In this document: positions 779 through 44,635 of the stretch, piece after piece
Numbering within the stretch: position 1 is the first letter of the stretch
Layout of the letters: every line of letters begins with the position of its first letter
From: Deltaproteobacteria bacterium
Lineage (GTDB): Bacteria > Myxococcota_A > UBA9160 > JAFDDA01
Assembly: GCA_019311105.1 (NCBI GenBank)
Contig: JAFDDA010000064.1
Location: 7,593 to 71,592, forward strand
Direction: 5' to 3'
Length of the DNA: 64,000 nucleotides
Position numbers and translations under genes: made by a program
The notes under the pieces: generated by a model
Database searches by the model: none
Told to the model about the DNA's origin: nothing
The model's input: the letters and a program-made list of their open reading frames with translations, nothing else

Positions 779-793
779 CCCGGACTCTCGGCC

Positions 794-2559: not shown

Positions 2560-2636
2560 GGGCGCTGTATGCTAGCCCTCCCGCCGCGTGGCCCCCAGAC
2601 GCGAGAGACCCGGGCCAACGTGGAGAGACAGTTCGC

Positions 2637-7860: not shown

Positions 7861-8012
7861 ACCTCTCCCGGTCTAAGACCGCGGGAATCTACTCCAACCG
7901 CCTCAGCCGGCCTATGAGATTTTCGTCATCTGCCTTCTTGGGCGGCGGTCTTCCCGATACCCTCTGGCCTGGGTAGACCCGGCCTCGGCGTCGGACCCAG
8001 GGGAGGGTTGGG

Positions 8013-9068
8013 GTGGAAAGCGGCCACACGCTGCGCCGGGACGGTAGCGTCCGTCAAATGCGAGATATCCTGAGTGACTGCTTCGAGCGGCGCCCGGGTA
8101 TCTATTGGGCGGACATGGCCGTGAGTGCGTCCGTGGCCTACCCGGCCGCGCTCTACTTCCTGCTCGCGCCGGGCTTCGGCCCCCTCCACGTCGCCGCCTA
8201 TCTGGTGGGCGGTCTCGCCCTGTTTCGCCTGGGGAGCTTCATCCACGAAATCCAGCACATGCGCTCGGACGAGATGCGGCTTTTCAAGGGCGTCTGGAAC
8301 GTCCTTTGTGGCGTGCCCATGGTGATGACCTCGAACACCTACGACAACCACGCCGACCATCACAGCGTCCGGACCTATGGGACTGAATCGGACGGGGAAT
8401 ACGTGCCTTTGGCCTCCGGGACCGGGCGAATCCTCATGTATTGCCTGCAGGTTCCGCTGTTGCCCCTGCTCGCGATCGTGCGCTTCGCGGTGCTCGGTCC
8501 GCTCTCGCTCCTCTACCCGCCGCTGCGGCGCTGGGTGCTGGCGCATGCCTCCTCCTACGGCATCAACCCGAACTACGTCTTGCTCCCGGTGCGGCAGACC
8601 TCACCTGCTCTCTACGCGTTGCGCGATCTCGCCTGCGGGGCCTACATGCTCGGTATCGTGGCCCTGTTGGTCACGGGCGTGCTGCCGCTCGAGTTCGTCG
8701 CCCGCCTCTATGCCTTCCTGCTCTTCACGATTGGCCTGAACTACACGCGGAACCTGGCGGCGCACCGCTATCGCGAGTACAGCGGGCCGGTTGGGATCAT
8801 CGAGCAGCTCGAGGACTCGATCACCATCACGGGGGGGCTCTCGACCGAGCTGCTCTTCCCGATCGGGCTTCGATACCACGCGCTACACCACGCGCTTGCG
8901 ACGATCCCGTACCACCAGATGGCCCGGGCTCACCGTCGCCTTCTCGAGCAGCTCGAACCGGATTCGCCCTACCGGAGCACGGTGCATCCTTCGTTCGTGG
9001 GCGTCCTGCGCAACCTCGTCGCGGATGCGCGCGGGCAGAGGGGCGCCGCCGGGGCCCGCGCCGCTTGA
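8013..9068 (+). CDS. Fatty-acid desaturase/hydroxylase family membrane protein (paralog of 6787..7860)
   Basis: 351 aa with histidine boxes HEIQHM, HADHH and HALHHA. It lies divergent from its paralog. The start is uncertain: GTG at 8013, or a later ATG. Confidence 0.8.
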   Translation: MESGHTLRRDGSVRQMRDILSDCFERRPGIYWADMAVSASVAYPAALYFLLAPGFGPLHVAAYLVGGLALFRLGSFIHEIQHMRSDEMRLFKGVWNVLCGVPMVMTSNTYDNHADHHSVRTYGTESDGEYVPLASGTGRILMYCLQVPLLPLLAIVRFAVLGPLSLLYPPLRRWVLAHASSYGINPNYVLLPVRQTSPALYALRDLACGAYMLGIVALLVTGVLPLEFVARLYAFLLFTIGLNYTRNLAAHRYREYSGPVGIIEQLEDSITITGGLSTELLFPIGLRYHALHHALATIPYHQMARAHRRLLEQLEPDSPYRSTVHPSFVGVLRNLVADARGQRGAAGARAA

Positions 9069-9090
9069 GGGCCGGGGGACCCATCGCAGC

Positions 9091-10854
9091 ATGAGGATCC
9101 TGCTGGAGTTTGCGCGTGCGCGTCCGCTCGCGAGCCTGGCCTTGCTGCTGTGCTTGTTCGTCGCGGGGGTCGTCGAGGGACTCGGCTATTCGTCCGTTCT
9201 TCCGCTCCTTCGGGTCGCGATCGACGGTTCCGTCGCCGAGTCGCCGTCGGGCATGGAGGCTCGGGTGCTCGACGCCTTCCGAAGTGTCGGTCTCGTCCCC
9301 ACCCTCGGGGTCCTCGCCTCCGTGATCGCCGCTGCTTTCATCGTGAAGGCGGCGATCGTTCTGTTCGTTCGGCGGCAGGTGGGGTACACGATCGCGCGCG
9401 TGGTGACGGATCTGCGTCTGCGACTGCTCCGCGCGCTACTTCGAGCAGACTGGCCCTACTACGTGCGTCAGCCGGTCGGTGGCCTCGCCAACGCCTTTGT
9501 CACCGAGGCGAACCGAGCTGGCTCTGCCTACATGCACGGCACTTGGGTTGCCTACCGCGTCCTTCAGATGGCGATCTATGCCGGGATTGCCTTCGCCATT
9601 TCGTGGCGGGTGACCCTCGTGGCGCTCGTCATCGCATCGTTCCTGGTCCTGAGCCTGGCAGGCCTCGTGCGCACGGGACGACGTGCGGGCCTTCGGCAGA
9701 CGAAGCTGTTCCGCGGGCTGCTGAGCCGATTCACGGATCTACTGCAGAGCGTGAAGCCCTTGAAGGCCATGGGACGCGCCGAGGACATGACGCCGTTCCT
9801 CGAGCGCGACACCTTGCGCGTGCAGCGCATCCGCCAGAAGCAGGTCTTCGTGAAGGAGGCGATGCCGGCGCTGCAAGAGCCGATCATGGTCGGCGTCCTC
9901 TTGCTCGGCCTTTATGTAGCGAGTGAGATCATGGGGCTGGAGGTGTTGAGCTTCGGCGTCATGGGCCTGTTGCTCTACAAAGCCTACAGCGCCATGAACC
10001 AGGCTCAGCGTCGCTATCAGAAGGTCGCGGTGGACGAGAGTGCGTATTGGGCGATCCGTCGCACCATCGAAGAGGCCGAGGCGCAGGCGGAGCGGTCGGG
10101 TTCGGGTGTGATGGTGCCGTTGCGCGATGCCATCGAGCTCGAGGCCGTGAGCCTGCAACACGACGCCGTCGACGCTGGGCGAGAGGCCCATGTCGTCCTG
10201 GATCGTGCGGATGTCTCGATTCCGGCGGGTGAGGTCACCGCGTTGACGGGGCCCTCGGGTTCCGGGAAGACGACGATCGTCGACCTCGTGGCGGGGCTGC
10301 TCCAACCGACGGAGGGTTGCGTCCGCGTGGACGGGGTGCCCCTCGGTGAGCTCGACCTCGCCTGCTGGCGCCGATCGATCGGCTACGTCCCGCAGGAGAC
10401 GTTCCTGCTGAACGACACCATCGCGACGAATGTGACCCTCGGCGCGCCGGATCTTTCCGAGGCCGAGGTGGTGCGCGCGCTCCGTGCAGCACACGCCTGG
10501 GAGTTCGTGAAGGATCTCCCCAAAGGCATCGAAACCCCGGTCGGCGAGCGCGGCTCGGCGCTCTCGGGCGGCCAACGCCAGCGCATCGCCATCGCGCGAG
10601 CCCTGGTGCATCGACCTTCGCTGCTGATCCTCGACGAGGCCACCGCCTCGCTCGACCCGGCGAGCGAGGCCGCGGTGCTCGAGGCGGTGCGGGAGTTGCG
10701 AGGCCGGACCACCGTGCTCGCGGTGTCCCATCAGCCCGCGCTGCTCGGGGTTGCGAGCCGGGTCTATCATGTGGCGGACGGCGTCGCGACGCGGAAGCCG
10801 GCCGAGGAAGAGGCCGCTGCCCCTCGCGCTGCCGCCGCGGGAGCCCAGGCATGA
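9091..10854 (+). CDS. ABC exporter, fused permease/ATPase (MsbA-like)
   Basis: ATG at 9091, in frame in ORF 8791..10854. It has N-terminal TM helices. The C-terminal NBD carries Walker A GPSGSGKTT, the signature LSGGQRQR and Walker B LLILDEAT. Confidence 0.85.
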   Translation: MRILLEFARARPLASLALLLCLFVAGVVEGLGYSSVLPLLRVAIDGSVAESPSGMEARVLDAFRSVGLVPTLGVLASVIAAAFIVKAAIVLFVRRQVGYTIARVVTDLRLRLLRALLRADWPYYVRQPVGGLANAFVTEANRAGSAYMHGTWVAYRVLQMAIYAGIAFAISWRVTLVALVIASFLVLSLAGLVRTGRRAGLRQTKLFRGLLSRFTDLLQSVKPLKAMGRAEDMTPFLERDTLRVQRIRQKQVFVKEAMPALQEPIMVGVLLLGLYVASEIMGLEVLSFGVMGLLLYKAYSAMNQAQRRYQKVAVDESAYWAIRRTIEEAEAQAERSGSGVMVPLRDAIELEAVSLQHDAVDAGREAHVVLDRADVSIPAGEVTALTGPSGSGKTTIVDLVAGLLQPTEGCVRVDGVPLGELDLACWRRSIGYVPQETFLLNDTIATNVTLGAPDLSEAEVVRALRAAHAWEFVKDLPKGIETPVGERGSALSGGQRQRIAIARALVHRPSLLILDEATASLDPASEAAVLEAVRELRGRTTVLAVSHQPALLGVASRVYHVADGVATRKPAEEEAAAPRAAAAGAQA

Positions 10855-11811
10855 GCGAGACGCTTCGCCCCCGAACCTGGCTGGATGAGCCGCGCGCCGG
10901 CGCGCCCTGCACCGTGATTGCCGAGGTCGCCCAGAGCCACGAGGGCAGCCTCGGGATGGCCCACGCCTTCATCGACGCCGCCGCCGCTGCGGGCGCCGAC
11001 GCCATCAAGTTCCAGACCCACATCGCGAGCGCCGAGAGCACACCGGCCGAGCCGTGGCGCAAATCCTTCAGCTCGCAGGACACGACGCGTCTTGGCTACT
11101 GGCGCCGCATGGAGTTCGCCGAAGAGGGCTGGCACGAGCTGCGCAAGCACGCCCAGGAGCGAGACCTCCTCTTCTTGAGTTCGCCCTTCTCGCTTGCAGC
11201 GGTCGAGCTGCTCGAGCGCGTCGGCGTGGCGGGCTGGAAGGTCGCTTCCGGCGAGATCAACAACCACGCGCTGCTCGATCGGATGTGCGACGGCGGCATC
11301 CCGGTCATGCTCTCGACGGGCATGAGCCAGGAGGACGAGATCGCGACAGCGGCGGCTCGTGTCCAGGCGCGCGGCGTGCCGCTCGCGGTGATGCAGTGCA
11401 CCTCGATGTACCCGTGCCCGCCCGAGTGGGTCGGCGTGGATCTCGTCCCGCACTTCCGTGAGCGCTTTGGCTGTGCCGTCGGGCTCTCGGACCACTCGGC
11501 GACGATCTATCCCGGCATCGCCGCAGCGATGCTCGGGGCCGAGGTGCTGGAAGTCCATCTGACCCTCGGTCGCGAGATGTTCGGGCCCGATGTCATCGCT
11601 TCGCTCACCTCCACCGAGCTGCGCCAGCTGGTGGACGGGGTCCGCTTCATCGAACGCATGCGGGCCCACCCCGGCCGCAAGGCGGACCTGCCCGAATCCG
11701 TGACGTCGCTGCGGCAGATCTTCATGAAGAGCGTCGTCGCCACGCACGCGCTCGAGGAGGGCACCACGCTCGCCGCCGAGGATCTGTGCTCCAAGAAGCC
11801 CGGGAACCATG
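10851..11811 (+). pseudogene. neuB: N-acetylneuraminate (nonulosonate) synthase NeuB-like, 3' end disrupted
   Basis: VIAEVAQSHEGSL...ADAIKFQTH and GLSDHS are NeuB/PseI-type blocks. The SAF-domain start (KSVVATHALEEGTTLAAEDLCSKKPG) breaks off where neuC starts. There is no in-frame stop until 12821. Confidence 0.7.
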
Positions 11812-12966
11812 TCGAGGAAGGTCTGCGTCGTCATCACCGCTCGCCCGAGCTACTCGCGGGTGCGGTCGCTCCTGCGAGCGATCAAGAACCACCCGGAGCT
11901 CGAACTTCAGCTCGTCGTTGCGGCCTCGGCGCTGCTGGATCGCTACGGAAGCGTCCACACCGTGATCGAGCGGGAGGGCTTCCACATCGATCGCCGGGTC
12001 TACAACATCTTCGAAGGCGAGAACCTGCTCACCTCGGCGAAGTCGACCGGCATGGGGATCGTCGAGCTGGCCAGTGCCTTCTCCGAGCTCGCGCCCGACA
12101 TGGTCGTCACCATCGCAGATCGCTTCGAGACCATCGCGACGGCGATCGCCGCGAGCTACCAGAACATTCCCCTCGTGCACATCCAGGGTGGCGAGGTCTC
12201 GGGCTCCATCGACGAGAAGGTGCGCCACGCGATCACCAAGCTCGCGGATCTCCACTTCGTCTCTTCCGCCCGTGCCGCGGAGCGCGTGATCCGCATGGGC
12301 GAACGCAGCGACCGCGTGTACGACACGGGCTGCCCTTCCATCGACGTGGTCGTCGACGCCTTGGCGAAGCCGCCGCTCTCCACGAGCGAGCTATTCGAAC
12401 GCTACGGCGGGGTTGGCGACACGCTCAATCTCGACGACGCCTACGTCGTGGTGATCCAGCACCCGGTCACCACGCAGTACGAGGCCAGCCGACGTCAGGT
12501 GCTCGAGACGCTTCACGCGATCGCCGAGAGCGGCGTCCCGACGCTCTGGTTCTGGCCGAACGTCGACGCGGGCTCCGACGGCACGTCCGGAGGGATCCGC
12601 GCCTATCGCGAGGAGCACTCGCTGCCCCACGTCCACTTCTTCAAGAACCTGCCGCCCGACGACTTCCTGCGCCTCATCGATCGCAGCCGCGGTATCGTGG
12701 GCAACTCGAGCGTGGCCATCCGCGAGTGCGCCTTCATGGGCGTCCCCGCCGTGAACATCGGCAACCGACAGCGGGGGCGCGACCGCGGGCGCAACGTGAT
12801 CGACGTGGAACACGACCGTAAGCAGATCCGCGACGCCATCGATCGCTGTGTCGCCGCCGGGCGTTTTGAATCCGACCTGCTCTACGGCGACGGAGAGTCG
12901 GGCGTGCGAATCGCCGACCACCTGGTGACCGTACCGTTGAGCGTCGAAAAGACCCTTACCTACTAA
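11809..12966 (+). CDS. neuC: UDP-N-acetylglucosamine 2-epimerase (hydrolysing), NeuC-like
   Basis: 385 aa. VCVVITARPSY, IADRFE and HIQGGEVSGSIDEKVRHAITKLADLHF are hallmark epimerase_2 blocks. Confidence 0.85.
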   Translation: MSRKVCVVITARPSYSRVRSLLRAIKNHPELELQLVVAASALLDRYGSVHTVIEREGFHIDRRVYNIFEGENLLTSAKSTGMGIVELASAFSELAPDMVVTIADRFETIATAIAASYQNIPLVHIQGGEVSGSIDEKVRHAITKLADLHFVSSARAAERVIRMGERSDRVYDTGCPSIDVVVDALAKPPLSTSELFERYGGVGDTLNLDDAYVVVIQHPVTTQYEASRRQVLETLHAIAESGVPTLWFWPNVDAGSDGTSGGIRAYREEHSLPHVHFFKNLPPDDFLRLIDRSRGIVGNSSVAIRECAFMGVPAVNIGNRQRGRDRGRNVIDVEHDRKQIRDAIDRCVAAGRFESDLLYGDGESGVRIADHLVTVPLSVEKTLTY

Positions 12967-12983
12967 GAGGGGGAGGAGAAAGA

Positions 12984-13781
12984 GTGCCGACCTTTACTGA
13001 AGCTCAGCTCGACGCTCACGAGGCGATGCTGGTTGAAAACGTCTTTCAGACGAGCAAGTGGCCCCACTTCGACCTGTTGTTTCGCGACATCCGACGTCAT
13101 GCGGGCGAGCTTTCCCCCGGCGCGACGGTCGTGTCGCTGGAGCGTGGTCTGCTCTATGGGGGCGTCAGTCTAGTCGCGCCGTTCTTCCACGCTCAGAACT
13201 TCATCTCCGTGGATTGCTCACCGGAGAGTGCGGACGAGCGGGGCGGGTACAACGCGGGGCAGATCGACGACCCGCGCACGCTTCGTGTGCCGACGACCCG
13301 CCGCGCTCCGATCGAAGCCACAGGTCTCGAAGCCGATCAGGCCGATCTCGTGCTCGTCCCGAACCTGGTGCATCATGTCGCCAATCAGCGGGCACTTTTC
13401 GGTGAGATGGCTCGGATCGCCCGGCCCGGCGGTTCGGTCTACGTCTTCGAGGCGTTGCTCCGCGAGCTGCACCAGATCCCCGACGACTACCTCCGCTACA
13501 CCCCGTTCGGGATCCAGAAAGTTCTTGTTGAAGCCGGCCTCGAGTGCGACGACTACGAAGTCGAAGGCGGCCCGTTCTCGGCGATCGGCTACTGCTGGAT
13601 CCAGGCCCTGCAATACTTCCCCGAGCCGCGTCGCTCGGAGATGGAACGTTGGTTCTTCGAGGAGCACTGGCCCGATCTCCAGAAGTGGGAGGAGGCGCAT
13701 CGTGAGAACCTCGTCCGCAAGCATACGGCGTTCCCCGTGAGCTTCTCCGTCGTGGCGCGCAAGCCGGAGGCGAATTCTTGA
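12984..13781 (+). CDS. SAM-dependent methyltransferase-like protein
   Basis: 265 aa, GTG start preceded by GGGAGGAG. LVLVPNLVHHV...LFGEMARIARPGGSVYVFE resembles the post-I/II region of class I methyltransferases. Confidence 0.65.
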   Translation: MPTFTEAQLDAHEAMLVENVFQTSKWPHFDLLFRDIRRHAGELSPGATVVSLERGLLYGGVSLVAPFFHAQNFISVDCSPESADERGGYNAGQIDDPRTLRVPTTRRAPIEATGLEADQADLVLVPNLVHHVANQRALFGEMARIARPGGSVYVFEALLRELHQIPDDYLRYTPFGIQKVLVEAGLECDDYEVEGGPFSAIGYCWIQALQYFPEPRRSEMERWFFEEHWPDLQKWEEAHRENLVRKHTAFPVSFSVVARKPEANS

Positions 13782-14460
13782 GTTTTCAGGGCCGCAGCGT
13801 CCTCGCCATCGTGCCTGCGCGTGGCGGGAGCCGCGGGATCCCACGCAAGAATCTCTGCAAGATCGGCGGGCTTTCGCTCGTTGCCCGGGCTGGCCGCATG
13901 GCGGGCGCGCTCGGCTTCGTCGATCTCGCCATCTTGAGCACCGATGACGAGGAGATCGCCGATGAAGGCCGCCGCGCCGGGCTGGAGGTGCCGTTCATCC
14001 GGCCCCCCGATCTCTCCGGCGATCGCGCGACGGCCATCGCCACATGGCAGCACGCATGGCTCGAGGCCGAGGCCTTCCGGGGCGAGCGCTTCGACCTCTC
14101 GGTCTGGCTCGAGCCGACGAGCCCGCTGCGACGGCCCGAGGACGTGACCCGCACCGTCGAGGCGTTGTGCGCCGCCGGCAGCCGAGCCGCCATGACCGTG
14201 AGCCCGATCCCCGCCCACATGGCACCCGAGCGCGCACTCTGTGTCGAGGCGGATGGCCGCATCCGCGCCCACGGCAGGCGATCCCGCCGCGTCATCATCG
14301 AAACGGGCTGGCCTACGCGGCCACGCGTGCTGGTGTTCTCGAGGCAGGTGACGCGCTTTGGGACGATTGCTTCGCGGTGGTCGTCGATCGCCCGACCGCC
14401 AACATCGACGAGCAGATCGACCTCGAGTGGGCCGCCTTCCTGCTCGCGCGAGAGAACTGA
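13778..14460 (+). pseudogene. neuA: CMP-N-acylneuraminate synthetase (acylneuraminate cytidylyltransferase) NeuA-like, frameshifted
   Basis: The N-terminus AIVPARGGSRGIPRKNL...EPTSPLR is in the frame of ORF 13778. The C-terminus RQAIPPRHHRNGLAYAATR...ANIDEQIDLEWAAFLL is in the frame of ORF 14044..14460. The switch falls near 14255-14275. Confidence 0.8.
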
Positions 14461-14463
14461 GCC

Positions 14464-15828
14464 TTGGCCGCACCGGGCACCGCTGCGCCGCTCATCGTGC
14501 CGGTCGAAAGCCAGGTACGCGAGCTGGACGCGAAGCTCCTGCTCGCCTGCGTGGCAGCCGAGCGCGGCTTTCCCGTTCTGCTCGGCTCGCGGAATTGGCT
14601 TCACATGGGCGCGGCCGGGTTGCCGCGTGGGGTCTACCTTGCCAAGAGCCTGCGCCAGAAGAGCGCACGCATGTTCTCGATCTTTCGCGATCTCGGGCAC
14701 GAGATCGTGGCCTGGGACGAAGAAGGTCTCGTGCGCTGCCCCGACCCGCAGTATCTCGGCCGGAACCTCGCGCCGGGGACGCTCCAGCGGACCTCCATGT
14801 TTCTGGCCTGGGGTGCCGATCACGAGCGCGTGCTGCGCATGCACCCCGACGCGCAGGGCGTCGAGACGTGTGCGACGGGCAACCCACGCACGGACCTGTT
14901 GCGCCCCGAGCTGCGGGCCTGTTTCGACGCGGAGGTGCGCGAGCTCGAGCAGCGCTACGGCCCGTTCCTCTTGCTCAACACGAACTTCGGCCGCCTCAAC
15001 CACTTCTTTCACGACCTCGGCGACATGCGGCCCCATCTCGACCGTGACAGCGACGACTTCGAGGCCACGCGCGCACGACATCGTCAGGCTCTGCTCGACC
15101 ACTTCCTGGAAGCGGTCCCCTTCATCGCGGACGAGTTCCCGGACCACCAGCTCGTGGTGCGTCCGCATCCCTCCGAGAACCACGAGACCTGGCGCCGCGC
15201 TGCGGGCGGGCGGGCCAACGTCGTCGTGGTGAACGAGGGCAGCGTCATCCCGTGGCTGATGGCGGCGCGTGCCATGATCCACAACGGCTGCACGACCTCG
15301 ATCGAGGCCTTCCTGCTCGGGCGGCCCATCGTGACCTATCGCCCGGTGGTCTGTGAAAGCTTCGACGATCCGCTCCCCGTGGCCCTCAGTCACGCAGCGA
15401 CGGATCGCGAAGGGCTCGCCAAGGCGTTGCGCGCGGCGGTGAACGGCGAGCTCGAGGTCGGGGGTGCGGAGCGTCGAGCGGAGCTGGCACACCATGTGAC
15501 TGGCACCGAGGGCCGGCTGGTCTGCGATCGCATCGTCGACGCCCTGGAGGCTCGGGGCTACGCGCAGGGCCTGCCGCCGGCGCCGCCCTTCGGCACGCGG
15601 GCCTCCGCGTGGCTTCGCTGTCAGAAACGAGCAATCTCGAAGCGGATCAGCAGGGTCCGGCCGGGGCATCGAAACCACCGTGACTACTGGCGGCATCGTT
15701 TCCCGCCGGTGTCGGTCGAGGTGCTGCAAGCCCGCGTCGATCGCTTCGCAGAGTTGCTCGGGCGCTTCGAAGGCATCCACGTGAGCCCGCGCTCGCGCAA
15801 TATCTTCAGGATTGGAGGCTCGTCGTGA
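14464..15828 (+). CDS. Surface-carbohydrate biosynthesis protein, GT-B/capsule-synthesis-like (paralog A)
   Basis: 454 aa with a TTG start. It is clearly similar to 17534..18943 (PVE.QVRELD.KLLLA..AA.RGF, RGIYLAKS, GHEIV.WDEE, RPHP.E). The family assignment is tentative. Confidence 0.65.
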   Translation: MAAPGTAAPLIVPVESQVRELDAKLLLACVAAERGFPVLLGSRNWLHMGAAGLPRGVYLAKSLRQKSARMFSIFRDLGHEIVAWDEEGLVRCPDPQYLGRNLAPGTLQRTSMFLAWGADHERVLRMHPDAQGVETCATGNPRTDLLRPELRACFDAEVRELEQRYGPFLLLNTNFGRLNHFFHDLGDMRPHLDRDSDDFEATRARHRQALLDHFLEAVPFIADEFPDHQLVVRPHPSENHETWRRAAGGRANVVVVNEGSVIPWLMAARAMIHNGCTTSIEAFLLGRPIVTYRPVVCESFDDPLPVALSHAATDREGLAKALRAAVNGELEVGGAERRAELAHHVTGTEGRLVCDRIVDALEARGYAQGLPPAPPFGTRASAWLRCQKRAISKRISRVRPGHRNHRDYWRHRFPPVSVEVLQARVDRFAELLGRFEGIHVSPRSRNIFRIGGSS

Positions 15829-17537
15829 CTCCCCTCTCTTCCCCGCGCACGGGGTTTCGCGTTGCAGGTCTGCTCGAAGCCACGCCCGAGACCGTGAGCG
15901 AGCATCGCGTCGCTCTCGCGGAGTTGCGGCCCGGTGTGAACGCCCACGAGGACGCATTCGTGAAGCTCGGCGCTGACGGCACGCCCGAGTGGGTCATCTC
16001 GCGCGGCTGCGCCCACGCGGGCGGCCGGCTCGAGCTCGAGCCCGACCGACGGAGTGCCGTCTGCCCGCTCCATGGTTGGTGCCTCGACCTCGATGGGTTG
16101 CGTTACACGAACGGGCTCGGGACGAAGCAGCCCGTTCCCTTCGAAGTCGAAGGGGGCGAACTCCGCTACCGGCTCGAGCGCCACCGCCTCGAGCGGCCCG
16201 ACGCGCTGCGCACGCCCGTGTCCGAGCCGATCGAGGTGCGCTTTCTCGCGCACGCCTGTGTCGCCATCGAGTGCGGCGGGTTTCGACTCGTCACCGACCC
16301 CTGGCTGATCGGGCCGTGCTTCACCACGGGGTGGTGGCACTTGCATCCTCCCAAGAACGACGCGCTCGAGCTGCTCGCTGGCGCGAACGCCGTCTTCCTC
16401 TCGCACAACCATCCGGACCACACGCATCTGGAAACCCTGGCGCACGTGTCACCGGACGTGGAGATCCTGGTCCCCGACTTCGAGAGCCGGTCGGCCGAGG
16501 TCTCGGCACGGGCGCTCGGGCTCTCACCACATGCACTGGCTTTCAACACCGTCTTCTCCCACCCCGATGCGCCCTTTTCCATCGCCGTGTTGTTGGCAGG
16601 GAGCGGGCGCGACGATTCGGGGCTGCTCATCTTCGCGGGCGATCGCAAGATCCTGCTGGCTGCGGATTCGCGGGCGCTCAACCACTTCGTGCTTCCGCAC
16701 GACGTGGACGTGGTCTTCGATTCGTTTGCCGGGGGTGCTTCGGGCTATCCGCTGTGTTTCGAGAATTACGACCTGGAAGAGCGCCGGGTCATCTCGCGTC
16801 GCCACGCCGACGCGGTCCGCCACCATGTCGAACGGGTGGTGGAGACGACTCGGCCGCGGGCTTTCGTCCCCTATGCCGGCTATTTCCGGGTTGCCAGAGC
16901 CGAGGATTCGCTGATTGGCGACCACAATGTCTCCAACTCCGTGGAGGAGATCGCGGAGACGGTGGCAGCGGTGGCGCCCGAAACCCGGTTCATCGACCCG
17001 CGTCACGATGATCGGATCCGAATCGCCGCCGACCGGAGCATCACGGTGGACCGTGTCGACGCTCCAGCTCTCTACACGGTCGGGCCCGACTACGTGGCCC
17101 CCTATGTCCGGGCGCTGGAGGAAGAGGCGGCGGGGTTCCACGCGGACGAGCTGGTTGGCTACTTCGAACACTCGGAGTTCCAGGACGATCTCATCCTCTA
17201 CGTGCTCCCCACCGATCAGAGCTTCGTTCCGCAGGGGGAAGGCGTGCGCGTGGATTTCTCGGGCCCGAAGCCCGTCGTCGAGCTGCGTGCGCCCGATGCG
17301 CTACAGGCCGAGTATCAAAGCGCGGAGCCCGGGCCGCTGCGCCGCCTCGAGATCCGCGCCCGGCGCGAGCCACTGGCCCACGTCGTGCGCGAGCAACTCG
17401 CGTGGGAGGAACTCTCCATCGGCTTCCAGTGCCGGGTTCACCGCAAGCCGGACCTCTACAACGCGCACTTCTGGTTCCACTTCACCAATCGCTACATCGG
17501 GTCCCTGCGCGACCGCCCGGAACGGGAAGGCCGTTGA
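15825..17537 (+). CDS. Rieske [2Fe-2S] + metallo-beta-lactamase-fold hydroxylase, CMP-Neu5Ac hydroxylase (CMAH)-like
   Basis: 570 aa. The GTG start follows GGAGG and overlaps the upstream TGA. The Rieske motif is CAH-x16-CPLH. MBL-type HNHPDH is present. Blocks DPWLIGP, FAGGASGYP, VPYAGYF and IGFQCRV..PDLY..FWFHF follow. Confidence 0.8.
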   Translation: MTPLSSPRTGFRVAGLLEATPETVSEHRVALAELRPGVNAHEDAFVKLGADGTPEWVISRGCAHAGGRLELEPDRRSAVCPLHGWCLDLDGLRYTNGLGTKQPVPFEVEGGELRYRLERHRLERPDALRTPVSEPIEVRFLAHACVAIECGGFRLVTDPWLIGPCFTTGWWHLHPPKNDALELLAGANAVFLSHNHPDHTHLETLAHVSPDVEILVPDFESRSAEVSARALGLSPHALAFNTVFSHPDAPFSIAVLLAGSGRDDSGLLIFAGDRKILLAADSRALNHFVLPHDVDVVFDSFAGGASGYPLCFENYDLEERRVISRRHADAVRHHVERVVETTRPRAFVPYAGYFRVARAEDSLIGDHNVSNSVEEIAETVAAVAPETRFIDPRHDDRIRIAADRSITVDRVDAPALYTVGPDYVAPYVRALEEEAAGFHADELVGYFEHSEFQDDLILYVLPTDQSFVPQGEGVRVDFSGPKPVVELRAPDALQAEYQSAEPGPLRRLEIRARREPLAHVVREQLAWEELSIGFQCRVHRKPDLYNAHFWFHFTNRYIGSLRDRPEREGR

Positions 17538-18943
17538 GCGCTGGGACGCTGCTGATCCCGGTCGAAAATCAGGTACGCGAGCTCGATCCGAAGCTGCTGC
17601 TGGCAACCGTGGCGGCGCACCGGGGTTTCTCGTGCATCCTCGGTTCACGCCAGGAGGTGGACTTTCGACTGGGATCCGTCCCGCGCGGAATCTATCTCGC
17701 CAAGAGCATGACGAAGCGCAGTCGCAAGGTGTTCTCGATCCTTCGCCAGCTCGGCCACGAGATCGTAGTCTGGGACGAGGAGGCGCTGGTCACCTACAGC
17801 GACCCCGAGATCTACTACGGGCGACGCCTGGACGAGCAGACGATGGGGCTGGTTTCGCACCACTTCGCCTGGGGCGAGGCCAACGCCGAGCTGCTCCGGA
17901 AGTTCCGGCACTATCCGGGGACGCCGATCCACGTCACGGGGAACCCGCGGGGCGACCTGCTGCGCCCCGAGCTGCGCAGCTACTACGAGCGCGAAGCCGC
18001 GGTGCTTCGGGAGGAGCACGGCGACTTCCTGCTGGTGAACACGAACTTCGGCCACGTCAACGCGTACAACCCCATCGTCAATCTGTTGCTGGCGCCAGAC
18101 GCCGAGGGCAAGCGTGCGCCGGGCCGCGGCTCGATCGGTATGACCTACGACTACGCAGCGGGCCGAGCGGTCCACAAGCAGGTCGTGTTCGAGGCATTCG
18201 GCGAGATGATCCCGTTCCTGCACGACGCGTTTCCCCAGTTGAAGATCGTCGTGCGGCCCCACCCGGTGGAAGATCCGACGGTCTATCGGGAGCTCGAAGC
18301 GCGGCTGCCGCGCGTCGAGGTGATCAACGACGGCCAGAGCCCCGTGCCGTGGCTGATGGCGACCCACGCTCTGGTCCACAACTGTTGCACGACGGGGCTC
18401 GAGTCCTGGATCGTCGGAACCCCGGCGGTGACCTACCGGCCGGTCCAGAGCGATGCCTACGAGGAATCGTTGCCGAACAAACTGAGCCACGACGCCTTCG
18501 ACCTTCCGCAGCTGCGGGAAGTGTTGGAGCGCATCGTGTCGGGCCGCCTGGGCCGGCTCGAAAACGATGAGACCGACCGGGTCGTGGCACACCATCTCGC
18601 GGGGCTTTCCGGCCCGCTTGCGTCCGAGCGCATCGCCGATGCCATGGCTCCGGTGGTGGAGGCCTGGCGCGCGCAGCCGCGGCCGCGTCTTCGCCGGCGC
18701 CTCGAGGGGCGCTGGCGTTCCTTGCGCCGGAGGATCAAGAAGGAGATCCGCTCGCGGAAGGCGGGCTCGAAGAACTCGCCGGAATTCCAGCGACATCGCT
18801 ACCCGGGCCTGTCCATCGCAGAGGTTCGAGAGCGCGTGGATCGCTTCGGGTCGATGCTCGGCCTGACGAACCCGATCGCCGTCTCGCGGATCTCTGCGCA
18901 CGTCTACCGGATCGAACCCGGCAAGGCTTCGCGCAGGGCCTAG
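17534..18943 (+). CDS. Surface-carbohydrate biosynthesis protein, GT-B/capsule-synthesis-like (paralog B)
   Basis: TTG at 17534 overlaps the CMAH-like stop (TTGA), in frame in ORF 17402..18943. It is a paralog of 14464..15828. Confidence 0.65.
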   Translation: MSAGTLLIPVENQVRELDPKLLLATVAAHRGFSCILGSRQEVDFRLGSVPRGIYLAKSMTKRSRKVFSILRQLGHEIVVWDEEALVTYSDPEIYYGRRLDEQTMGLVSHHFAWGEANAELLRKFRHYPGTPIHVTGNPRGDLLRPELRSYYEREAAVLREEHGDFLLVNTNFGHVNAYNPIVNLLLAPDAEGKRAPGRGSIGMTYDYAAGRAVHKQVVFEAFGEMIPFLHDAFPQLKIVVRPHPVEDPTVYRELEARLPRVEVINDGQSPVPWLMATHALVHNCCTTGLESWIVGTPAVTYRPVQSDAYEESLPNKLSHDAFDLPQLREVLERIVSGRLGRLENDETDRVVAHHLAGLSGPLASERIADAMAPVVEAWRAQPRPRLRRRLEGRWRSLRRRIKKEIRSRKAGSKNSPEFQRHRYPGLSIAEVRERVDRFGSMLGLTNPIAVSRISAHVYRIEPGKASRRA

Positions 18944-18956
18944 GCGGACCGCTCGC

Positions 18957-20210
18957 TTATTCGCTCAGGCGAGTGCCCCAGAATGCCACCAACCGCTGCG
19001 CGTGCCAGGCCAGCGAGAACCCCTGCCAGGCGACGATCCCGTAGAAGGTGGCGAGGGCCACGACGCTCGTCCCGGCCACGGCATCGATGGCGAGGGCCAC
19101 CGTGAAGAACGCCAGGTTCACGTTGCGGCGCGAGATGAACGTGCGCATGCGGACGTCGAGAGGGGTAGCACCGTGGATCGATCGGCCGGTCTTCTGCCGG
19201 AAGATCGCGGTCACGATCCGATCGATCACATAGAGCGCGAACATCGCGAGTGCCGCTTGGTAGGGCAGCGACTCGGTCGAACCGCTGCCAAGCGCATAGC
19301 CCCAGGCCATGTACCAGAAGGGCGGGTGGACGATGTCGAGGCCGTGGTCGGCCACGTCGCCCACGCGTGACGACGTGTAGGTCAGGCGCGCGAGCTTTCC
19401 GTCCACGGAATCCATGACGCTCATCAGATAGGCGCAAGCGAGGGCCGGGACCCACGCGCCTTCCATGAAGAGTGGGATGCAACCGAAGGTCGCGACCCAG
19501 TTGACCCCCGTGATCCAGTTGGGATGGACGCGAAGGTGGGAGAGCGGCCGCACCAGGGCCCAGACGAGCGGCGGGTAGACGTAGCGCGTCATGAAGTCGG
19601 TCGAGCCCTTGTAGTTCGACCAGAAGAGGAACCGCTCGACGCGGGCGATGGTCTCCGGGCCATCGATTCGGAAGAGGTAGGGGCCCACCTCCCGGCGCAG
19701 CTTCTGGACGTACCCGTTGAATTCGGCCTCGAGGACGGGCGTCAGGTCGCCTCGCGCGAGGCCATTCTCCGCGATGGTACGGAGGTCATCCGCCTCGGGA
19801 GAGGGGTCGGCGGCCTCGGCGCCGATGCGGAAGAGCGCTGCGCCGGCATGGACCTCGGGCTCCACGAAGGCCTGGTCTTTCGGCGCCGAAGCGAGATGGG
19901 TGAGCAGCCGTGGGTCGATCACCGAATCTGCAGAGACGGCGAGGAGCGGTGCGCCTTCCGCTTCGCGACGGACCCGCGCGATGTGCCCCCCAGCCGTGCC
20001 CGGAGTGCGCGTGAAGTGCAGGGGCAGGGCGCGAGCGAGGTCGGGCCGGAGGTCGGGCTCGGGCGCGTCGGGGGCGAGCGCCACCTCCACACGGCCAACG
20101 GCAAGCCCGGATTCGATCACGCCACGCAGCACGCGTTCGAGCAGGCTGAGGCCGAACACCCGGCGTTGCCCCGGCTGGCGGGCATCGATCCAGATCACCG
20201 TGTCGTTCAA
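18957..20210 (-). CDS. CDP-alcohol phosphatidyltransferase with N-terminal extension (paralog of 2637..3788)
   Basis: TTG at 20210, 10 nt after GGAG, in frame in ORF 18957..20606. The signature is DSVDGKLARLT...GDVADHGLDIVHP. The FGLS..ER.LR N-terminal domain is shared with the paralog. Confidence 0.8.
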   Translation of the reverse strand: MNDTVIWIDARQPGQRRVFGLSLLERVLRGVIESGLAVGRVEVALAPDAPEPDLRPDLARALPLHFTRTPGTAGGHIARVRREAEGAPLLAVSADSVIDPRLLTHLASAPKDQAFVEPEVHAGAALFRIGAEAADPSPEADDLRTIAENGLARGDLTPVLEAEFNGYVQKLRREVGPYLFRIDGPETIARVERFLFWSNYKGSTDFMTRYVYPPLVWALVRPLSHLRVHPNWITGVNWVATFGCIPLFMEGAWVPALACAYLMSVMDSVDGKLARLTYTSSRVGDVADHGLDIVHPPFWYMAWGYALGSGSTESLPYQAALAMFALYVIDRIVTAIFRQKTGRSIHGATPLDVRMRTFISRRNVNLAFFTVALAIDAVAGTSVVALATFYGIVAWQGFSLAWHAQRLVAFWGTRLSE

Positions 20211-20224
20211 GAGGGGTCCGCTCC

Positions 20225-20665
20225 CTAAGCGTCGGCTTCGAAGTGTCCGCGCAGGAAGGCGGCGAGTTCCTGGTGCTGAGCCTCGTCGAGGGGGAGCCGG
20301 GCCGTGATGTCGGGCGGGCCCGGCCAGCTGGCATCTTCGAAGCTCGCCCCGCCGAACTCGCGCGCGCCTTCGTAGCGAGGCAGCACGTGAAAGTGGACGT
20401 CGGGGTCGACCATCATCAGCATCAGATAGTTGATCTTGTCGTTGGCGAAGGCGCGGGCCAGCGCGCGTTCGATCTGCGCCGTGGCCTGCTGCAACTCGGT
20501 GGCGGCCTCGGGGCTGATCCCACCGAACTGGGCGGCGTCGTCGGTGCAGACGAGCACCAGGCTGCCGAGGGTCGGCTGGGCGGGGCGGCGGAGCAGCACG
20601 AGCCAATGACTGAAGCGCGTGAGCAGGCTCTCGGGGTAGCCGAACTTCTCGGCGGTGGCGTTCAT
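20225..20665 (-). CDS. HIT-family nucleotide hydrolase/transferase
   Basis: 146 aa with the histidine triad DVHFHVLPR. Confidence 0.8.
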   Translation of the reverse strand: MNATAEKFGYPESLLTRFSHWLVLLRRPAQPTLGSLVLVCTDDAAQFGGISPEAATELQQATAQIERALARAFANDKINYLMLMMVDPDVHFHVLPRYEGAREFGGASFEDASWPGPPDITARLPLDEAQHQELAAFLRGHFEADA

Positions 20666-21456
20666 CCCTGGGGGAGCCCGAGTACGTCGGCCATGCTGTA
20701 GAGGCCCGGCTCGCGGCCGAGCAGCCAGCGCGCGGCGCGCACGCTGCCGGCGGCGAAGTGGTCGCGGGTGAAGCTCCGGTGGGCGAGCTCGACGCGCTCG
20801 CCGCGACCGATGAAGTGGATCATGTGTTCGCCGGGGTTGTCGCCGCCGCGGAGCGTCTGGATGCCGATGCTGCCCGGCGGCCGCGTGCCCACGTCGCCCT
20901 CGCGCGAGAGCACGCCGGCCTTCTCGAGGTTCGTTCCGCGAGCGTTGGCGATGGTTTCCCCAAGCCAGAGCGCGGTGCCGCTCGGGGCGTCGACCTTGGC
21001 GGAGTGATGAAGCTCGACGATCTCGGCGTCGAAGTCTTCGCCGAGCAACTCGGCCGCGACCCGCGCCAGGTGCCCGAGCACGTTCACGGAGACCGAGAAG
21101 TTGGCCGCCGATACGATGGGGATCTGGCTCGCGTGCCGTTCGAACTCGGCACGCTCGTCGGGCGTGAACCCGGTCGTGCCCGTGGCGTAGGGAAGGCCGG
21201 CGTCTGCCGCCGCGGCGAGCCCGGCGAGTGTCGCCGCGGGCACCGAGAAGTCGATCACGGCGTCTGCCGCCGCCATGGCCGCCGCAGGGTCATCGCCCAC
21301 GACGAGCCCACTCGCTTCGCTCCCGAGCCCCGGGTGCCCCGGCCCCTCGAGCAGCGAGCCGAGCACCACCGCGGGGTCGGCCTCCACGGCCGCACGCACG
21401 CGCTCGCCCATGCGGCCGAGGGCGCCGACGACACAGATGCGAGCCGGCTCACTCAC
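20662..21456 (-). CDS. dapB: 4-hydroxy-tetrahydrodipicolinate reductase
   Basis: 264 aa. It has the N-terminal Rossmann ICVVGALGRMG and the block ELHHSAKVDAPSGTA. Confidence 0.9.
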   Translation of the reverse strand: MSEPARICVVGALGRMGERVRAAVEADPAVVLGSLLEGPGHPGLGSEASGLVVGDDPAAAMAAADAVIDFSVPAATLAGLAAAADAGLPYATGTTGFTPDERAEFERHASQIPIVSAANFSVSVNVLGHLARVAAELLGEDFDAEIVELHHSAKVDAPSGTALWLGETIANARGTNLEKAGVLSREGDVGTRPPGSIGIQTLRGGDNPGEHMIHFIGRGERVELAHRSFTRDHFAAGSVRAARWLLGREPGLYSMADVLGLPQG

Positions 21457-43082: not shown

Positions 43083-43270
43083 CTCGAGGTGGCGTCGAAG
43101 CGCTCCTGGACTGCGCGGCGGCAGGTGTGCAACCAGCCGTCTACGCGCCGTTTTTCCGAATCCGATTCGGGGAACGTCGTTATGCGGGTATCGCCCCTCG
43201 CTGTTCCGCCACGTACGGTCGTGGCTCAGCGGGTGGTTGAACTCATTGATTCAACAAGGAAATCGCGAAT

Positions 43271-43291
43271 CGTTCCGATCCGAACGGAACG
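43271..43291 (-). terminator. Hairpin downstream of the sigma-54 activator gene
   Basis: cgttccg-N7-cggaacg, 12 nt past the stop at 43303. The minus strand is moderately T-rich afterwards. Confidence 0.35.
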
Positions 43292-43302
43292 CGCATGGAA
43301 CG

Positions 43303-44635
<1,333 letters not shown>

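What the first reader, a model, noticed from the sequence alone, without database searches (positions are those of the whole stretch)
15825..17537. CMAH-like Rieske/metallo-beta-lactamase-fold hydroxylase embedded in a bacterial NeuB-NeuC-NeuA operon
This 570-aa ORF has an N-terminal Rieske motif (CAH-x16-CPLH) fused to an MBL-fold core (HNHPDH) and a long C-terminal region.

That architecture and length match animal CMP-N-acetylneuraminate hydroxylase (CMAH). Several blocks (DPWLIGP, FAGGASGYP, VPYAGYF, IGFQ..R..PD.Y..FW.HF) match what I recall as conserved CMAH blocks.

The gene is translationally coupled on both sides (GTGA and TTGA overlaps). It sits two genes downstream of the CMP-sialic acid synthetase gene, so its presumed substrate would be made by the same operon.

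De novo Neu5Gc synthesis is regarded as a deuterostome trait. To my knowledge, prokaryotic CMAH homologues have only been noted in phylogenetic surveys, without functional or genomic-context evidence.

I see no cytochrome b5 or b5-reductase partner in the window. The electron donor would therefore differ from the animal system.
Basis: partly seen in the sequence, partly recalled or inferred. Interest (0 to 1): 0.88.

Follow-up and report, generated by a model that had tools for sequence, protein, structure and literature searches.

The report
Bacterial CMAH-like hydroxylase in sialic-acid operon
An uncultured soil/water bacterium carries an intact, full-length relative of the animal enzyme that makes the sialic acid Neu5Gc, inside a sialic-acid synthesis and transfer operon. 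This makes the question of whether bacteria can make N-glycolyl sialic acids themselves directly testable, although no activity has been shown.

Summary
The ORF 15825..17537 (+, 570 aa) is real and is a full-length homologue of animal CMP-Neu5Ac hydroxylase. It is 28% identical to a marsupial CMAH over 522 aa (E 1e-59). The Rieske ligands (C62, H64, C80, H83), the HxHxDH motif (H194-H199) and the C-terminal blocks are invariant across bacteria and animals.

The predicted structure is confident (pLDDT 92.8). Its metallo-beta-lactamase core is closest to the diiron hydroxylases FrsH and CmlA.

The gene lies in a tightly packed eight-gene operon: ABC exporter, neuB, neuC, methyltransferase, neuA, sialyltransferase-like gene, CMAH-like gene, second sialyltransferase-like gene. 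The same cassette occurs in ten gammaproteobacterial species. In 28 of 74 bacterial homologue loci a nonulosonate synthesis gene lies within 10 kb, and in 34 of 74 a methyltransferase lies within 3 kb.

Most likely function: hydroxylation of the N-acetyl group of CMP-Neu5Ac, possibly followed by O-methylation. This is not demonstrated.

Caveats:
- In this window neuB and neuA carry frame-breaking deletions that are absent from 95-97% identical relatives. Two unrelated genes are also split, so assembly error is likely.
- Prokaryotic homologues were already known from surveys, and JGI already names them CMP-N-acetylneuraminate monooxygenase.
- No electron donor is visible in the window.

The parts
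8791..10854 (+). ABC exporter with fused membrane and ATPase domains, the first gene of the operon. Its stop overlaps the neuB start (ATGA). The true start may lie downstream of 8791.
   Evidence: Pfam ABC_membrane 3.4e-14 and ABC_tran 3e-32. Similar exporters lie next to the homologue in L080, L011, L012, L025 and L040.
10851..11807 (+). neuB (N-acetylneuraminate synthase). It lacks its last 31 codons and its stop because of a 97-nt deletion at 11807|11808, and the frame runs on to 12821.
   Evidence: Pfam NeuB 4.3e-63. TIGR03569 271.7 bits, model positions 2-306 of 329. Best solved relative is N. meningitidis NeuB, 1.7e-45. The deletion is seen against L081 and L082, where the gene is intact.
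11809..12966 (+). neuC (hydrolysing UDP-GlcNAc 2-epimerase)
   Evidence: TIGR03568 NeuC_NnaA 368.5 bits, above its cut-off of 235.9. Best solved relative is the human GNE epimerase domain 4zht, 2.3e-68, ahead of the legionaminic-type epimerase 5xvs, 1.1e-49.
12984..13781 (+). SAM-dependent methyltransferase, a conserved member of the cassette
   Evidence: Pfam Methyltransf_11 2.1e-08. 60% identical to the methyltransferase of the gammaproteobacterial cassette.
13778..14460 (+). neuA (CMP-nonulosonate synthetase), broken by a 25-nt deletion near 14254-14263. The N-terminal 162 aa are in one frame and the C-terminal 66 aa are in another.
   Evidence: Pfam CTP_transf_3 3.8e-12. tblastn shows the two frames. 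The intact 236-aa version in L082 best matches CMP-Neu5Ac synthetases.
14464..15828 (+). Nonulosonate (sialyl)transferase-like protein 1 (TIGR04396 family)
   Evidence: TIGR04396 361.1 bits (cut-off 125); weak match to the BFO_1060 glycosyltransferase family. Invariant D-E-E and R-P-H-P motifs. BFO_1060/Tanf_01245 is genetically implicated in nonulosonate transfer (PMC5420450).
15825..17537 (+). CMAH-like hydroxylase: Rieske domain, metallo-beta-lactamase-fold iron domain, and a CMAH-type C-terminal domain
   Evidence: BLASTP against Sarcophilus CMAH: 28% identity over 522 aa, E 1e-59. Invariant ligands. AlphaFold pLDDT 92.8. Nearest folds are FrsH and CmlA.
16008..16073 (+). Rieske [2Fe-2S] ligand motif C62-x-H64 ... 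C80-x-x-H83
   Evidence: Invariant in 66 bacterial and animal sequences. The family profile matches the Rieske domains of dioxygenases and ferredoxins.
16404..16421 (+). Metal-binding motif H194-N-H196-P-D198-H199 of the metallo-beta-lactamase fold
   Evidence: Invariant. It aligns with the HNHQDH motif of the diiron hydroxylases CmlA and FrsH.
17534..18943 (+). Nonulosonate (sialyl)transferase-like protein 2, a paralogue of protein 1 (41% identity) and the last gene of the operon
   Evidence: TIGR04396 350.1 bits. Comparison with protein 1 and shared motifs.
18957..20606 (-). CDP-alcohol phosphatidyltransferase, convergent with the operon. It may belong to the same surface-glycoconjugate locus.
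   Evidence: Pfam CDP-OH_P_transf 6.4e-09. The same family lies next to the closest homologue in L080, and a second copy is at 2505-3788.

Best explanation
The ORF encodes a bacterial member of the CMP-N-acetylneuraminate hydroxylase (CMAH) family.

Shown:
- It shares the whole three-part architecture of the animal enzyme, with all metal ligands conserved: a Rieske [2Fe-2S] domain, a metallo-beta-lactamase-fold non-haem iron domain, and a CMAH-type C-terminal domain.
- It is one gene of a tightly packed operon that also encodes a Neu5Ac-type pathway (NeuC, NeuB, NeuA), a methyltransferase, two sialyltransferase-like proteins and an exporter.

Inferred mechanism:
- NeuC, NeuB and NeuA make CMP-Neu5Ac.
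- The Rieske cluster takes electrons from a donor not encoded in the window and passes them to the iron site in the metallo-beta-lactamase-fold domain. That site is probably dinuclear, as in CmlA and FrsH.
- The iron site activates O2 and hydroxylates the methyl of the 5-N-acetyl group, giving CMP-Neu5Gc.
- The methyltransferase may then methylate the product, either on the new hydroxyl or on a ring hydroxyl.
- The two TIGR04396-type transferases attach the sugar to a surface glycoconjugate, which the ABC transporter exports.

Caveat for this assembly: neuB and neuA are frame-broken, so the pathway may be inactive in this genome or the contig may contain errors. Close relatives have both genes intact.
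For: Homology:
- Full-length homology to genuine animal CMAH.
- 23 invariant columns, including C62, H64, C80, H83, H194, H196, D198, H199, D264 and D281, across 66 bacterial and animal sequences.
- About 30 of 83 homologues are named CMP-N-acetylneuraminate monooxygenase by JGI.

Structure:
- Confident model, pLDDT 92.8, pTM 0.91.
- Nearest solved folds and profile matches are the diiron hydroxylases FrsH (1.3e-15) and CmlA (4.5e-12). The N-terminus matches Rieske domains.

Operon:
- 4-nt overlaps on both sides of the ORF.
- NeuC is closer to the animal GNE epimerase than to the legionaminic-type epimerase. NeuB and NeuA are closest to Neu5Ac enzymes.
- No aminotransferase or dehydratase of the Leg/Pse routes was found in the window.

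Comparative context:
- The same cassette occurs in 10 gammaproteobacterial species representatives.
- 28 of 74 homologue loci have a neuA, neuB or neuC homologue within 10 kb, and 21 have all three. Chance would give about 1% or less.
- Nonulosonate-linked loci occur in every bacterial clade of the tree.
- A methyltransferase is adjacent in 22 of 74 loci and within 3 kb in 34 of 74.
- A reductase with the domain pair of cytochrome b5 reductase lies beside the gene in 4 loci.
Against: - No activity data exist for any bacterial homologue; none was found in six literature searches.
- Identity to animal CMAH is only 26-28%, so substrate and regiochemistry could differ.
- 46 of 74 homologue loci have no nonulosonate gene within 10 kb. 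In Helicobacter, for example, the gene follows grpE-dnaK.
- Several nonulosonate-linked loci look legionaminic-acid-like rather than Neu5Ac-like.
- No electron donor is visible in the window.
- neuB and neuA are broken in this sequence.
Confidence: 0.6

Rival explanations
1. The protein belongs to the same family and is an oxygenase on a nonulosonate, but it carries out a different reaction. Possibilities are hydroxylation of another C-H (a backbone carbon, or the 7-N-acyl group of a legionaminic or pseudaminic acid), or oxidation or demethylation of a methyl group placed by the neighbouring methyltransferase. The product would then not be Neu5Gc.
For: - Only 26-28% identity to animal CMAH.
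- Homologues occur in legionaminic-acid-like clusters with DegT aminotransferase, a PtmE-like nucleotidyltransferase and a dehydratase.
- Methyltransferases of several unrelated families recur next to the gene.
- Rieske oxygenases as a class include demethylases (NdmA appears among the Rieske matches).
Against: - The window's cassette is Neu5Ac-type and has only one N-acyl group to modify.
- The only characterised reaction of the family is N-acetyl to N-glycolyl on a CMP-sugar (PMC5767959).
- The C-terminal blocks specific to CMAH are conserved.
Confidence: 0.25
2. The gene is a relic. The sialic-acid operon of this genome is decaying, so the hydroxylase has no substrate and no present function in this organism.
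For: - neuB has lost 97 nt, including its stop codon.
- neuA has lost 25 nt and is frameshifted.
- Both are intact in contigs that are 95-97% identical.
Against: - The CMAH-like gene, neuC, the methyltransferase and both transferase genes are intact, with all conserved residues.
- Two unrelated genes in the window are split in the same way: a PBP1-type penicillin-binding protein and an NtrC-like regulator. This points to assembly errors or genome-wide indels rather than specific loss of this pathway.
Confidence: 0.12
3. The protein is a metallo-beta-lactamase-fold hydrolase, as NCBI names some members, and has no redox role.
For: - Pfam reports only Lactamase_B_2 and Lactamase_B_3 above threshold.
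- NCBI names include 'MBL fold metallo-hydrolase'.
- Many Foldseek hits are hydrolases or nucleases.
Against: - The four Rieske ligands are invariant in all 66 sequences.
- The best structural and profile matches are diiron monooxygenases.
- There is full-length homology to an experimentally established monooxygenase family.
Confidence: 0.03

Closest known systems
Animal CMP-N-acetylneuraminate hydroxylase (CMAH, EC 1.14.18.2)
   Same: - Length (570 vs about 577 aa) and three-domain order.
- Rieske CxH...CxxH ligands and the HxHxDH motif.
- Conserved blocks DPWL.GP, FAGGASG.P, P.AGYF and IGFQ.R..R.PD.Y..FW.
- 28% identity over 522 aa, E 1e-59.
- Encoded alongside the enzymes that make CMP-Neu5Ac.
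   Different: - Bacterial and encoded in an operon.
- No cytochrome b5 or b5 reductase nearby.
- Paired with a methyltransferase and TIGR04396-type transferases.
- In the neighbour-joining tree it sits on the bacterial side, with animals on a separate long branch.
- Activity is untested.
Prokaryotic CMAH homologues noted in surveys (Simakov 2015 as cited in, and Peri 2018, PMC5767959) and JGI/KEGG auto-annotations
   Same: The window protein belongs to this set. Relatives in metagenomes are already labelled CMP-N-acetylneuraminate monooxygenase.
   Different: The surveys list presence only. Three things were not found in the held literature:
- the operon context here;
- the cassette shared with sulfur-oxidising Gammaproteobacteria;
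- the recurring methyltransferase neighbour.
Diiron metallo-beta-lactamase-fold beta-hydroxylases CmlA and FrsH
   Same: The catalytic core fold, the HxHxDH motif and a downstream Asp align (profile E 4.5e-12 and 1.3e-15; Foldseek top hits). These enzymes perform O2-dependent C-H hydroxylation.
   Different: - They lack the Rieske domain and the CMAH C-terminal domain.
- They act on carrier-protein-bound amino acids.
- Only about 160 residues align.
Rieske non-haem iron oxygenases (alpha subunits of ring-hydroxylating dioxygenases)
   Same: An N-terminal Rieske domain feeds electrons to an iron site in the same polypeptide.
   Different: The catalytic domain here is metallo-beta-lactamase fold, not the Ring_hydroxyl_A domain.

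Membership tests
CMAH family (CMP-Neu5Ac hydroxylase) | Full-length sequence homology to experimentally defined animal CMAH | tested here: met
   BLASTP against Sarcophilus CMAH P0100: 28% identity over 522 of 570 aa, E 1e-59. Aligned with four animal sequences.
CMAH family (CMP-Neu5Ac hydroxylase) | Rieske [2Fe-2S] ligands CxH...CxxH near the N-terminus | tested here: met
   C62, H64, C80 and H83 are invariant in 66 sequences. The Pfam Rieske model alone is below threshold (16.6 vs 20.3 bits).
CMAH family (CMP-Neu5Ac hydroxylase) | Metallo-beta-lactamase-fold core with HxHxDH and downstream acidic ligands | tested here: met
   H194, H196, D198, H199, D264 and D281 are invariant. Pfam Lactamase_B_3 1.9e-08. 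Model and fold matches.
CMAH family (CMP-Neu5Ac hydroxylase) | CMAH-type C-terminal domain (IGFQ.R..R.PD.Y..FW block) | tested here: met
   I532, G533, R540, P542, Y545, F549 and W550 are invariant in the 19-sequence alignment with animals.
CMAH family (CMP-Neu5Ac hydroxylase) | Converts CMP-Neu5Ac to CMP-Neu5Gc | not testable with these tools
   Only context supports it: the operon has neuC, neuB and neuA of Neu5Ac type.
CMAH family (CMP-Neu5Ac hydroxylase) | Electrons supplied by cytochrome b5 and b5 reductase (a feature of the animal system) | tested here: not met
   No b5 or b5-reductase-like gene was found in the window. A FAD_binding_6/NAD_binding_1 reductase is adjacent in 4 other loci.
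Ring-hydroxylating Rieske oxygenase alpha subunits | Ring_hydroxyl_A (PF00848) catalytic domain after the Rieske domain | tested here: not met
   No such Pfam match. The catalytic part is Lactamase_B_2/3.
TIGR04396 surface carbohydrate biosynthesis protein (flanking genes 14464-15828 and 17534-18943) | Score above the curated cut-off; sialyltransferase D/E-D/E-G and HP motifs | tested here: met
   361.1 and 350.1 bits against a cut-off of 125. Invariant D85-E86-E87 and P234-H235-P236. Transferase activity itself is not tested.
NeuC/NnaA hydrolysing UDP-GlcNAc 2-epimerase (TIGR03568) | Score above the equivalog cut-off | tested here: met
   368.5 bits against a cut-off of 235.9.
NeuB N-acetylneuraminate synthase (TIGR03569) | Score above the equivalog cut-off, complete SAF domain | tested here: not met
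   271.7 bits against a cut-off of 399.65. The match stops at model position 306 of 329 because of the 97-nt deletion. The Pfam NeuB domain is met, and the relative L082 has the SAF domain.

The most novel reading that the evidence does not exclude
Free-living bacteria make N-glycolylneuraminic acid, or an O-methylated derivative of it, de novo from a self-contained operon. Candidate carriers are this Myxococcota lineage, sulfur-oxidising Gammaproteobacteria, and perhaps Pannonibacter, Bacteroidota, Pelagibacter and gastric animal Helicobacter. Neu5Gc synthesis would then not be a deuterostome-only trait. The animal enzyme would descend from a widespread bacterial tailoring enzyme for CMP-nonulosonates that draws electrons from a donor other than cytochrome b5.
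Probability: 0.4. Interest if true: 0.8.

Novelty: new member of a known kind. Interest (0 to 1): 0.62.

Why it matters
Neu5Gc is treated as an animal (deuterostome) sugar that bacteria can only scavenge. Humans lack it and make antibodies against it.

If this enzyme family acts on CMP-sialic acids in bacteria, several things follow:
- N-glycolyl, and possibly methoxyacetyl, nonulosonates would be native microbial surface sugars.
- There would be environmental and microbiota sources of Neu5Gc-like antigens.
- The proposed microbial or algal origin of animal CMAH would gain functional support.
- A soluble bacterial enzyme could be used to make CMP-Neu5Gc enzymatically.

The cassette and the list of cultured carriers make this testable with standard sialic-acid analytics.

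Tried and rejected
- A single-sequence search of solved structures gave only one weak hit (FrsH, E 0.005). The family profile was needed to get a clear result.
- The first word-indexed homology search did not reach animal CMAH. I therefore queried with a mouse CMAH sequence recalled from memory, solely to fetch real database entries, and used only those entries afterwards.
- An exact look-up of the window protein's contig, and the cluster member names, gave no source or organism. Taxonomy was inferred from ArgH hits instead.
- Profile comparison of the methyltransferase families next to the gene (c3, c10, c17, c28) gave no convincing relationship. They are treated as non-orthologous.
- The search for an electron donor in the window found nothing credible: tblastn with the FNR-like reductase, HPGG and ferredoxin motifs, and Pfam on about 45 ORFs.
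- The promoter and terminator scan of 7500-21000 was uninformative: 0 promoter-like sites and 1 terminator-like site, both below the shuffle expectation.
- I first read the neuB and neuA lesions as specific pseudogenisation. I downgraded this after finding similar splits in a PBP1 gene and an NtrC-like gene.
Full report
OBSERVATION

The ORF 15825..17537 (+) starts with GTG and encodes 570 aa. The window is about 69% G+C, so many spurious ORFs overlap it. This one is real: it has 83 database homologues, the best non-self hit being 60% identical. A profile search of 1.84 billion representative proteins finds 594 clusters at E <= 1e-30.

- CAH-x16-CPLH (C62, H64, C80, H83);
- HNHPDH (H194-H199);
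- DPWLIGP, FAGGASGYP and VPYAGYF;
- the C-terminal IGFQ...FW.HF block.

Both 4-nt overlaps are real. GTGA at 15825-15828 is preceded by GGAGG at 15814-15818. TTGA lies at 17534-17537.

Pfam reports Lactamase_B_3 (1.9e-08) and Lactamase_B_2. Its Rieske model is below threshold (16.6 vs 20.3 bits).

IS IT A CMAH RELATIVE?

The first homology search did not reach animals. I therefore used a recalled mouse sequence only as bait to fetch genuine database entries. These included CMAH of Apodemus, Sarcophilus, Xenopus, gar and salmon.

BLASTP of the window protein against Sarcophilus CMAH gives 28% identity over 522 residues, E 1e-59. The match covers all three regions.

In a 66-sequence alignment of bacterial and animal members, 23 columns are invariant. 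They include:
- the four Rieske ligands;
- H194, H196, D198 and H199;
- D264 and D281;
- H143, D158-P-W, G304-A305 and P349.

The C-terminal block (I532, G533, R540, P542, Y545, F549, W550) is invariant in the 19-sequence alignment that includes the animal sequences.

JGI already names about 30 of the 83 homologues 'CMP-N-acetylneuraminate monooxygenase'. NCBI calls others 'MBL fold metallo-hydrolase' or 'Rieske 2Fe-2S domain-containing protein'.

STRUCTURE AND LIKELY CHEMISTRY

AlphaFold2 with this alignment gives pLDDT 92.8 and pTM 0.91. No CMAH structure is in the PDB.

The best Foldseek hits are FrsH (8a90) and CmlA (4jo0). Both are O2-dependent diiron beta-hydroxylases built on the metallo-beta-lactamase fold. 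They rank ahead of RNase J and assorted hydrolases.

The family profile matches FrsH at 1.3e-15 and CmlA at 4.5e-12 over about 160 residues. Their HNHQDH motif aligns with H194-H199, and the Asp of their 'AADS' segment aligns with D281. The N-terminal part of the profile matches Rieske domains of dioxygenase alpha subunits and Rieske ferredoxins.

From this I infer the following mechanism. It is not shown. A Rieske cluster relays electrons to an iron site, probably dinuclear, in the metallo-beta-lactamase-fold domain. That site activates O2 and hydroxylates a C-H bond.

THE OPERON

The plus strand carries eight tightly packed genes:

| Gene | Coordinates |
|---|---|
| ABC exporter | 8791-10854 |
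| neuB | 10851- |
| neuC | 11809-12966 |
| SAM methyltransferase | 12984-13781 |
| neuA | 13778-14460 |
| TIGR04396 protein 1 | 14464-15828 |
| CMAH-like gene | 15825-17537 |
| TIGR04396 protein 2 | 17534-18943 |

The two TIGR04396 proteins are 41% identical to each other. They carry invariant D-E-E and R-P-H-P motifs, which are the D/E-D/E-G and HP motifs of bacterial sialyltransferases. They also weakly match the BFO_1060 family, whose Tannerella members are genetically required for transfer of pseudaminic and legionaminic acid derivatives (PMC5420450).

The pathway looks Neu5Ac-type:
- NeuC scores 2.3e-68 against the human GNE epimerase domain, versus 1.1e-49 against a legionaminic-type epimerase.
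- NeuB is closest to N. meningitidis NeuB.
- The intact NeuA of a close relative is closest to CMP-Neu5Ac synthetases.
- No Leg/Pse aminotransferase or dehydratase was found among about 45 window ORFs scanned.

The operon is flanked by:
- two fatty-acid desaturase genes;
- two CDP-alcohol phosphatidyltransferase genes (2505-3788 and 18957-20606);
- nucleotidyltransferase genes;
- housekeeping genes dapB, dapA, lysA and argH.

ArgH's best named relatives are Myxococcota MAGs at 90% and 85% identity. The source is therefore most likely an uncultured member of Myxococcota.

LESIONS IN THIS COPY

Compared with two metagenome contigs that are 95-97% identical in DNA (L081, L082), the window has two deletions:
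- 97 nt are missing at 11807|11808. This removes the last 31 codons and the stop codon of neuB.
- 25 nt are missing near 14254-14263. This frameshifts neuA.

Both genes are intact in L082.

Two unrelated genes in the window are split in the same manner:
- a PBP1-type gene (27487-28662 / 28449-29966);
- an NtrC-like regulator (43226-44635 / 43303-43995, minus strand).

I therefore regard assembly error or genome-wide indels as more likely than specific decay of the sialic-acid pathway. I cannot decide this without the reads.

COMPARATIVE CONTEXT

A scan of one genome per bacterial and archaeal species returned 79 loci, of which 75 are true homologues. They come from:
- Gammaproteobacteria;
- Alphaproteobacteria (Pelagibacterales, Pannonibacter, Bradyrhizobium, Parvibaculaceae);
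- Bacteroidota (Chitinophaga, Pontibacter, Flavicella);
- gastric non-pylori Helicobacter;
- Prochlorococcus and another cyanobacterium;
- Marinimicrobia.

Ten gammaproteobacterial loci carry the same cassette as the window: neuB, neuC, PLD-like gene, transferase, methyltransferase, neuA, transferase, CMAH-like gene, then a GT2/GtrA/PMT_2 fusion. Their NeuC, NeuB and methyltransferase are 58-62% identical to the window's.

Among the 74 loci analysed for context:
- 28 have a neuA, neuB or neuC homologue within 10 kb;
- 21 have all three.

A nonulosonate cluster is normally a single locus in a genome of several Mb. Chance proximity should therefore be about 1% or less; this figure is my reasoning, not a computed control.

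Several of these clusters also hold a DegT aminotransferase, a PtmE-like nucleotidyltransferase, a dehydratase and short-chain dehydrogenases, and so look legionaminic-acid-like.

In a neighbour-joining tree, nonulosonate-linked loci occur in every bacterial clade. The window plus its closest homologue P0002 is sister to the cassette clade. Animals form a separate long branch.

In the 46 loci without nearby nonulosonate genes, the only recurrent neighbour is a SAM methyltransferase. Overall a methyltransferase lies within 300 nt in 22 of 74 loci and within 3 kb in 34 of 74. These belong to at least four non-orthologous families, one of them TylF-like O-methyltransferases. This recurring pairing suggests hydroxylation followed by O-methylation. 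That is an inference.

Four alphaproteobacterial loci have an adjacent FAD_binding_6/NAD_binding_1 reductase, the same domain pair as cytochrome b5 reductase. The window has none.

LITERATURE

Peri et al. 2018 (PMC5767959), citing Simakov et al. 2015, report CMAH homologues in two green algae and about 60 prokaryotes. They give no functional or context analysis and restate that non-deuterostomes are thought unable to make Neu5Gc.

Friedrich et al. 2017 (PMC5378307) infer a possibly N-glycolyl legionaminic acid in Tannerella forsythia UB4. [quoted passage not shown]

Six searches of the held library found no study of the activity of a bacterial CMAH homologue. The library is incomplete, so this is not proof of absence.

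VERDICT

The most likely function is N-acetyl to N-glycolyl hydroxylation of the CMP-activated sialic acid made by the operon, possibly followed by methylation. I give this a confidence of about 0.6.

It is a new member of a known family whose prokaryotic branch was known to exist but is functionally unexplored. What this analysis adds is the conserved cassette, the methyltransferase pairing and the list of cultured carriers.

Noticed in passing
window 11807|11808 and about 14254-14263: neuB lacks 97 nt (its last 31 codons and stop codon). neuA lacks 25 nt and is frameshifted. Both are seen against the 95-97% identical contigs L081 and L082, where the genes are intact.
   Followed up: yes
window 27487-29966 (+) and 43226-44635 (-): A PBP1-type penicillin-binding protein is split between two frames inside its transglycosylase domain. 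An NtrC-like sigma-54 activator is split inside its AAA domain. This suggests the contig carries several small frame-breaking indels, from either assembly errors or genome decay.
   Followed up: partly
L004-L010, L032, L039, L051 (about 2.4-14.5 kb of each locus): Ten gammaproteobacterial species carry the same neuB-neuC-PLD-transferase-methyltransferase-neuA-transferase-CMAH cassette. It is followed by a GT2/GtrA/PMT_2 fusion gene and then sox sulfur-oxidation genes. The cassette is shared with a Myxococcota contig at 58-62% protein identity, which suggests horizontal transfer.
   Followed up: partly
22 of 74 homologue loci, e.g. L017, L021, L025, L042, L066 (upstream gene); L011, L012, L016, L019, L067: A SAM methyltransferase lies directly next to the CMAH-like gene, even where no nonulosonate genes are nearby. 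At least four non-orthologous methyltransferase families are involved, including TylF-like O-methyltransferases in Pannonibacter, Roseibium and Lacimicrobium.
   Followed up: partly
L026 8093-8905, L063 8077-8889, L043 8056-8869, L062 1736-2614: An FNR/cytochrome-b5-reductase-type flavoprotein (FAD_binding_6 plus NAD_binding_1) sits beside the CMAH-like gene in Pannonibacter, Roseibium and Phaeomarinobacter. It is a candidate electron donor.
   Followed up: partly
L041, L050, L070, L075 (Helicobacter baculiformis, cynogastricus, cetorum, bizzozeronii): Gastric Helicobacter species of cats, dogs and cetaceans carry a full-length CMAH homologue. In two of them it lies directly after grpE-dnaK, with no local sugar genes. 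No H. pylori locus appeared among the 79 returned.
   Followed up: partly
P0050, P0057, P0063, P0068, P0080 (C-termini, alignment A1 columns about 640-720): Some homologues have a C-terminal extension with a CxxC motif. The Salinibacter protein carries a DUF1858-type domain (PF08984). This could be an extra redox module. It is absent from the window protein.
   Followed up: no
window 2-3788, 6787-9068, 18957-20606; L080 3379-5629 and 8849-9913: The locus is surrounded by nucleotidyltransferases, two CDP-alcohol phosphatidyltransferases and two fatty-acid desaturases. Relatives also have a PLD-like phosphatidyltransferase. This hints that the sialic acid ends up on a phosphodiester-linked or lipid-anchored surface molecule.
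   Followed up: no
window 8001-18000: The operon is slightly less G+C-rich (0.65-0.69) than its flanks (about 0.70). This is compatible with horizontal acquisition.
   Followed up: no
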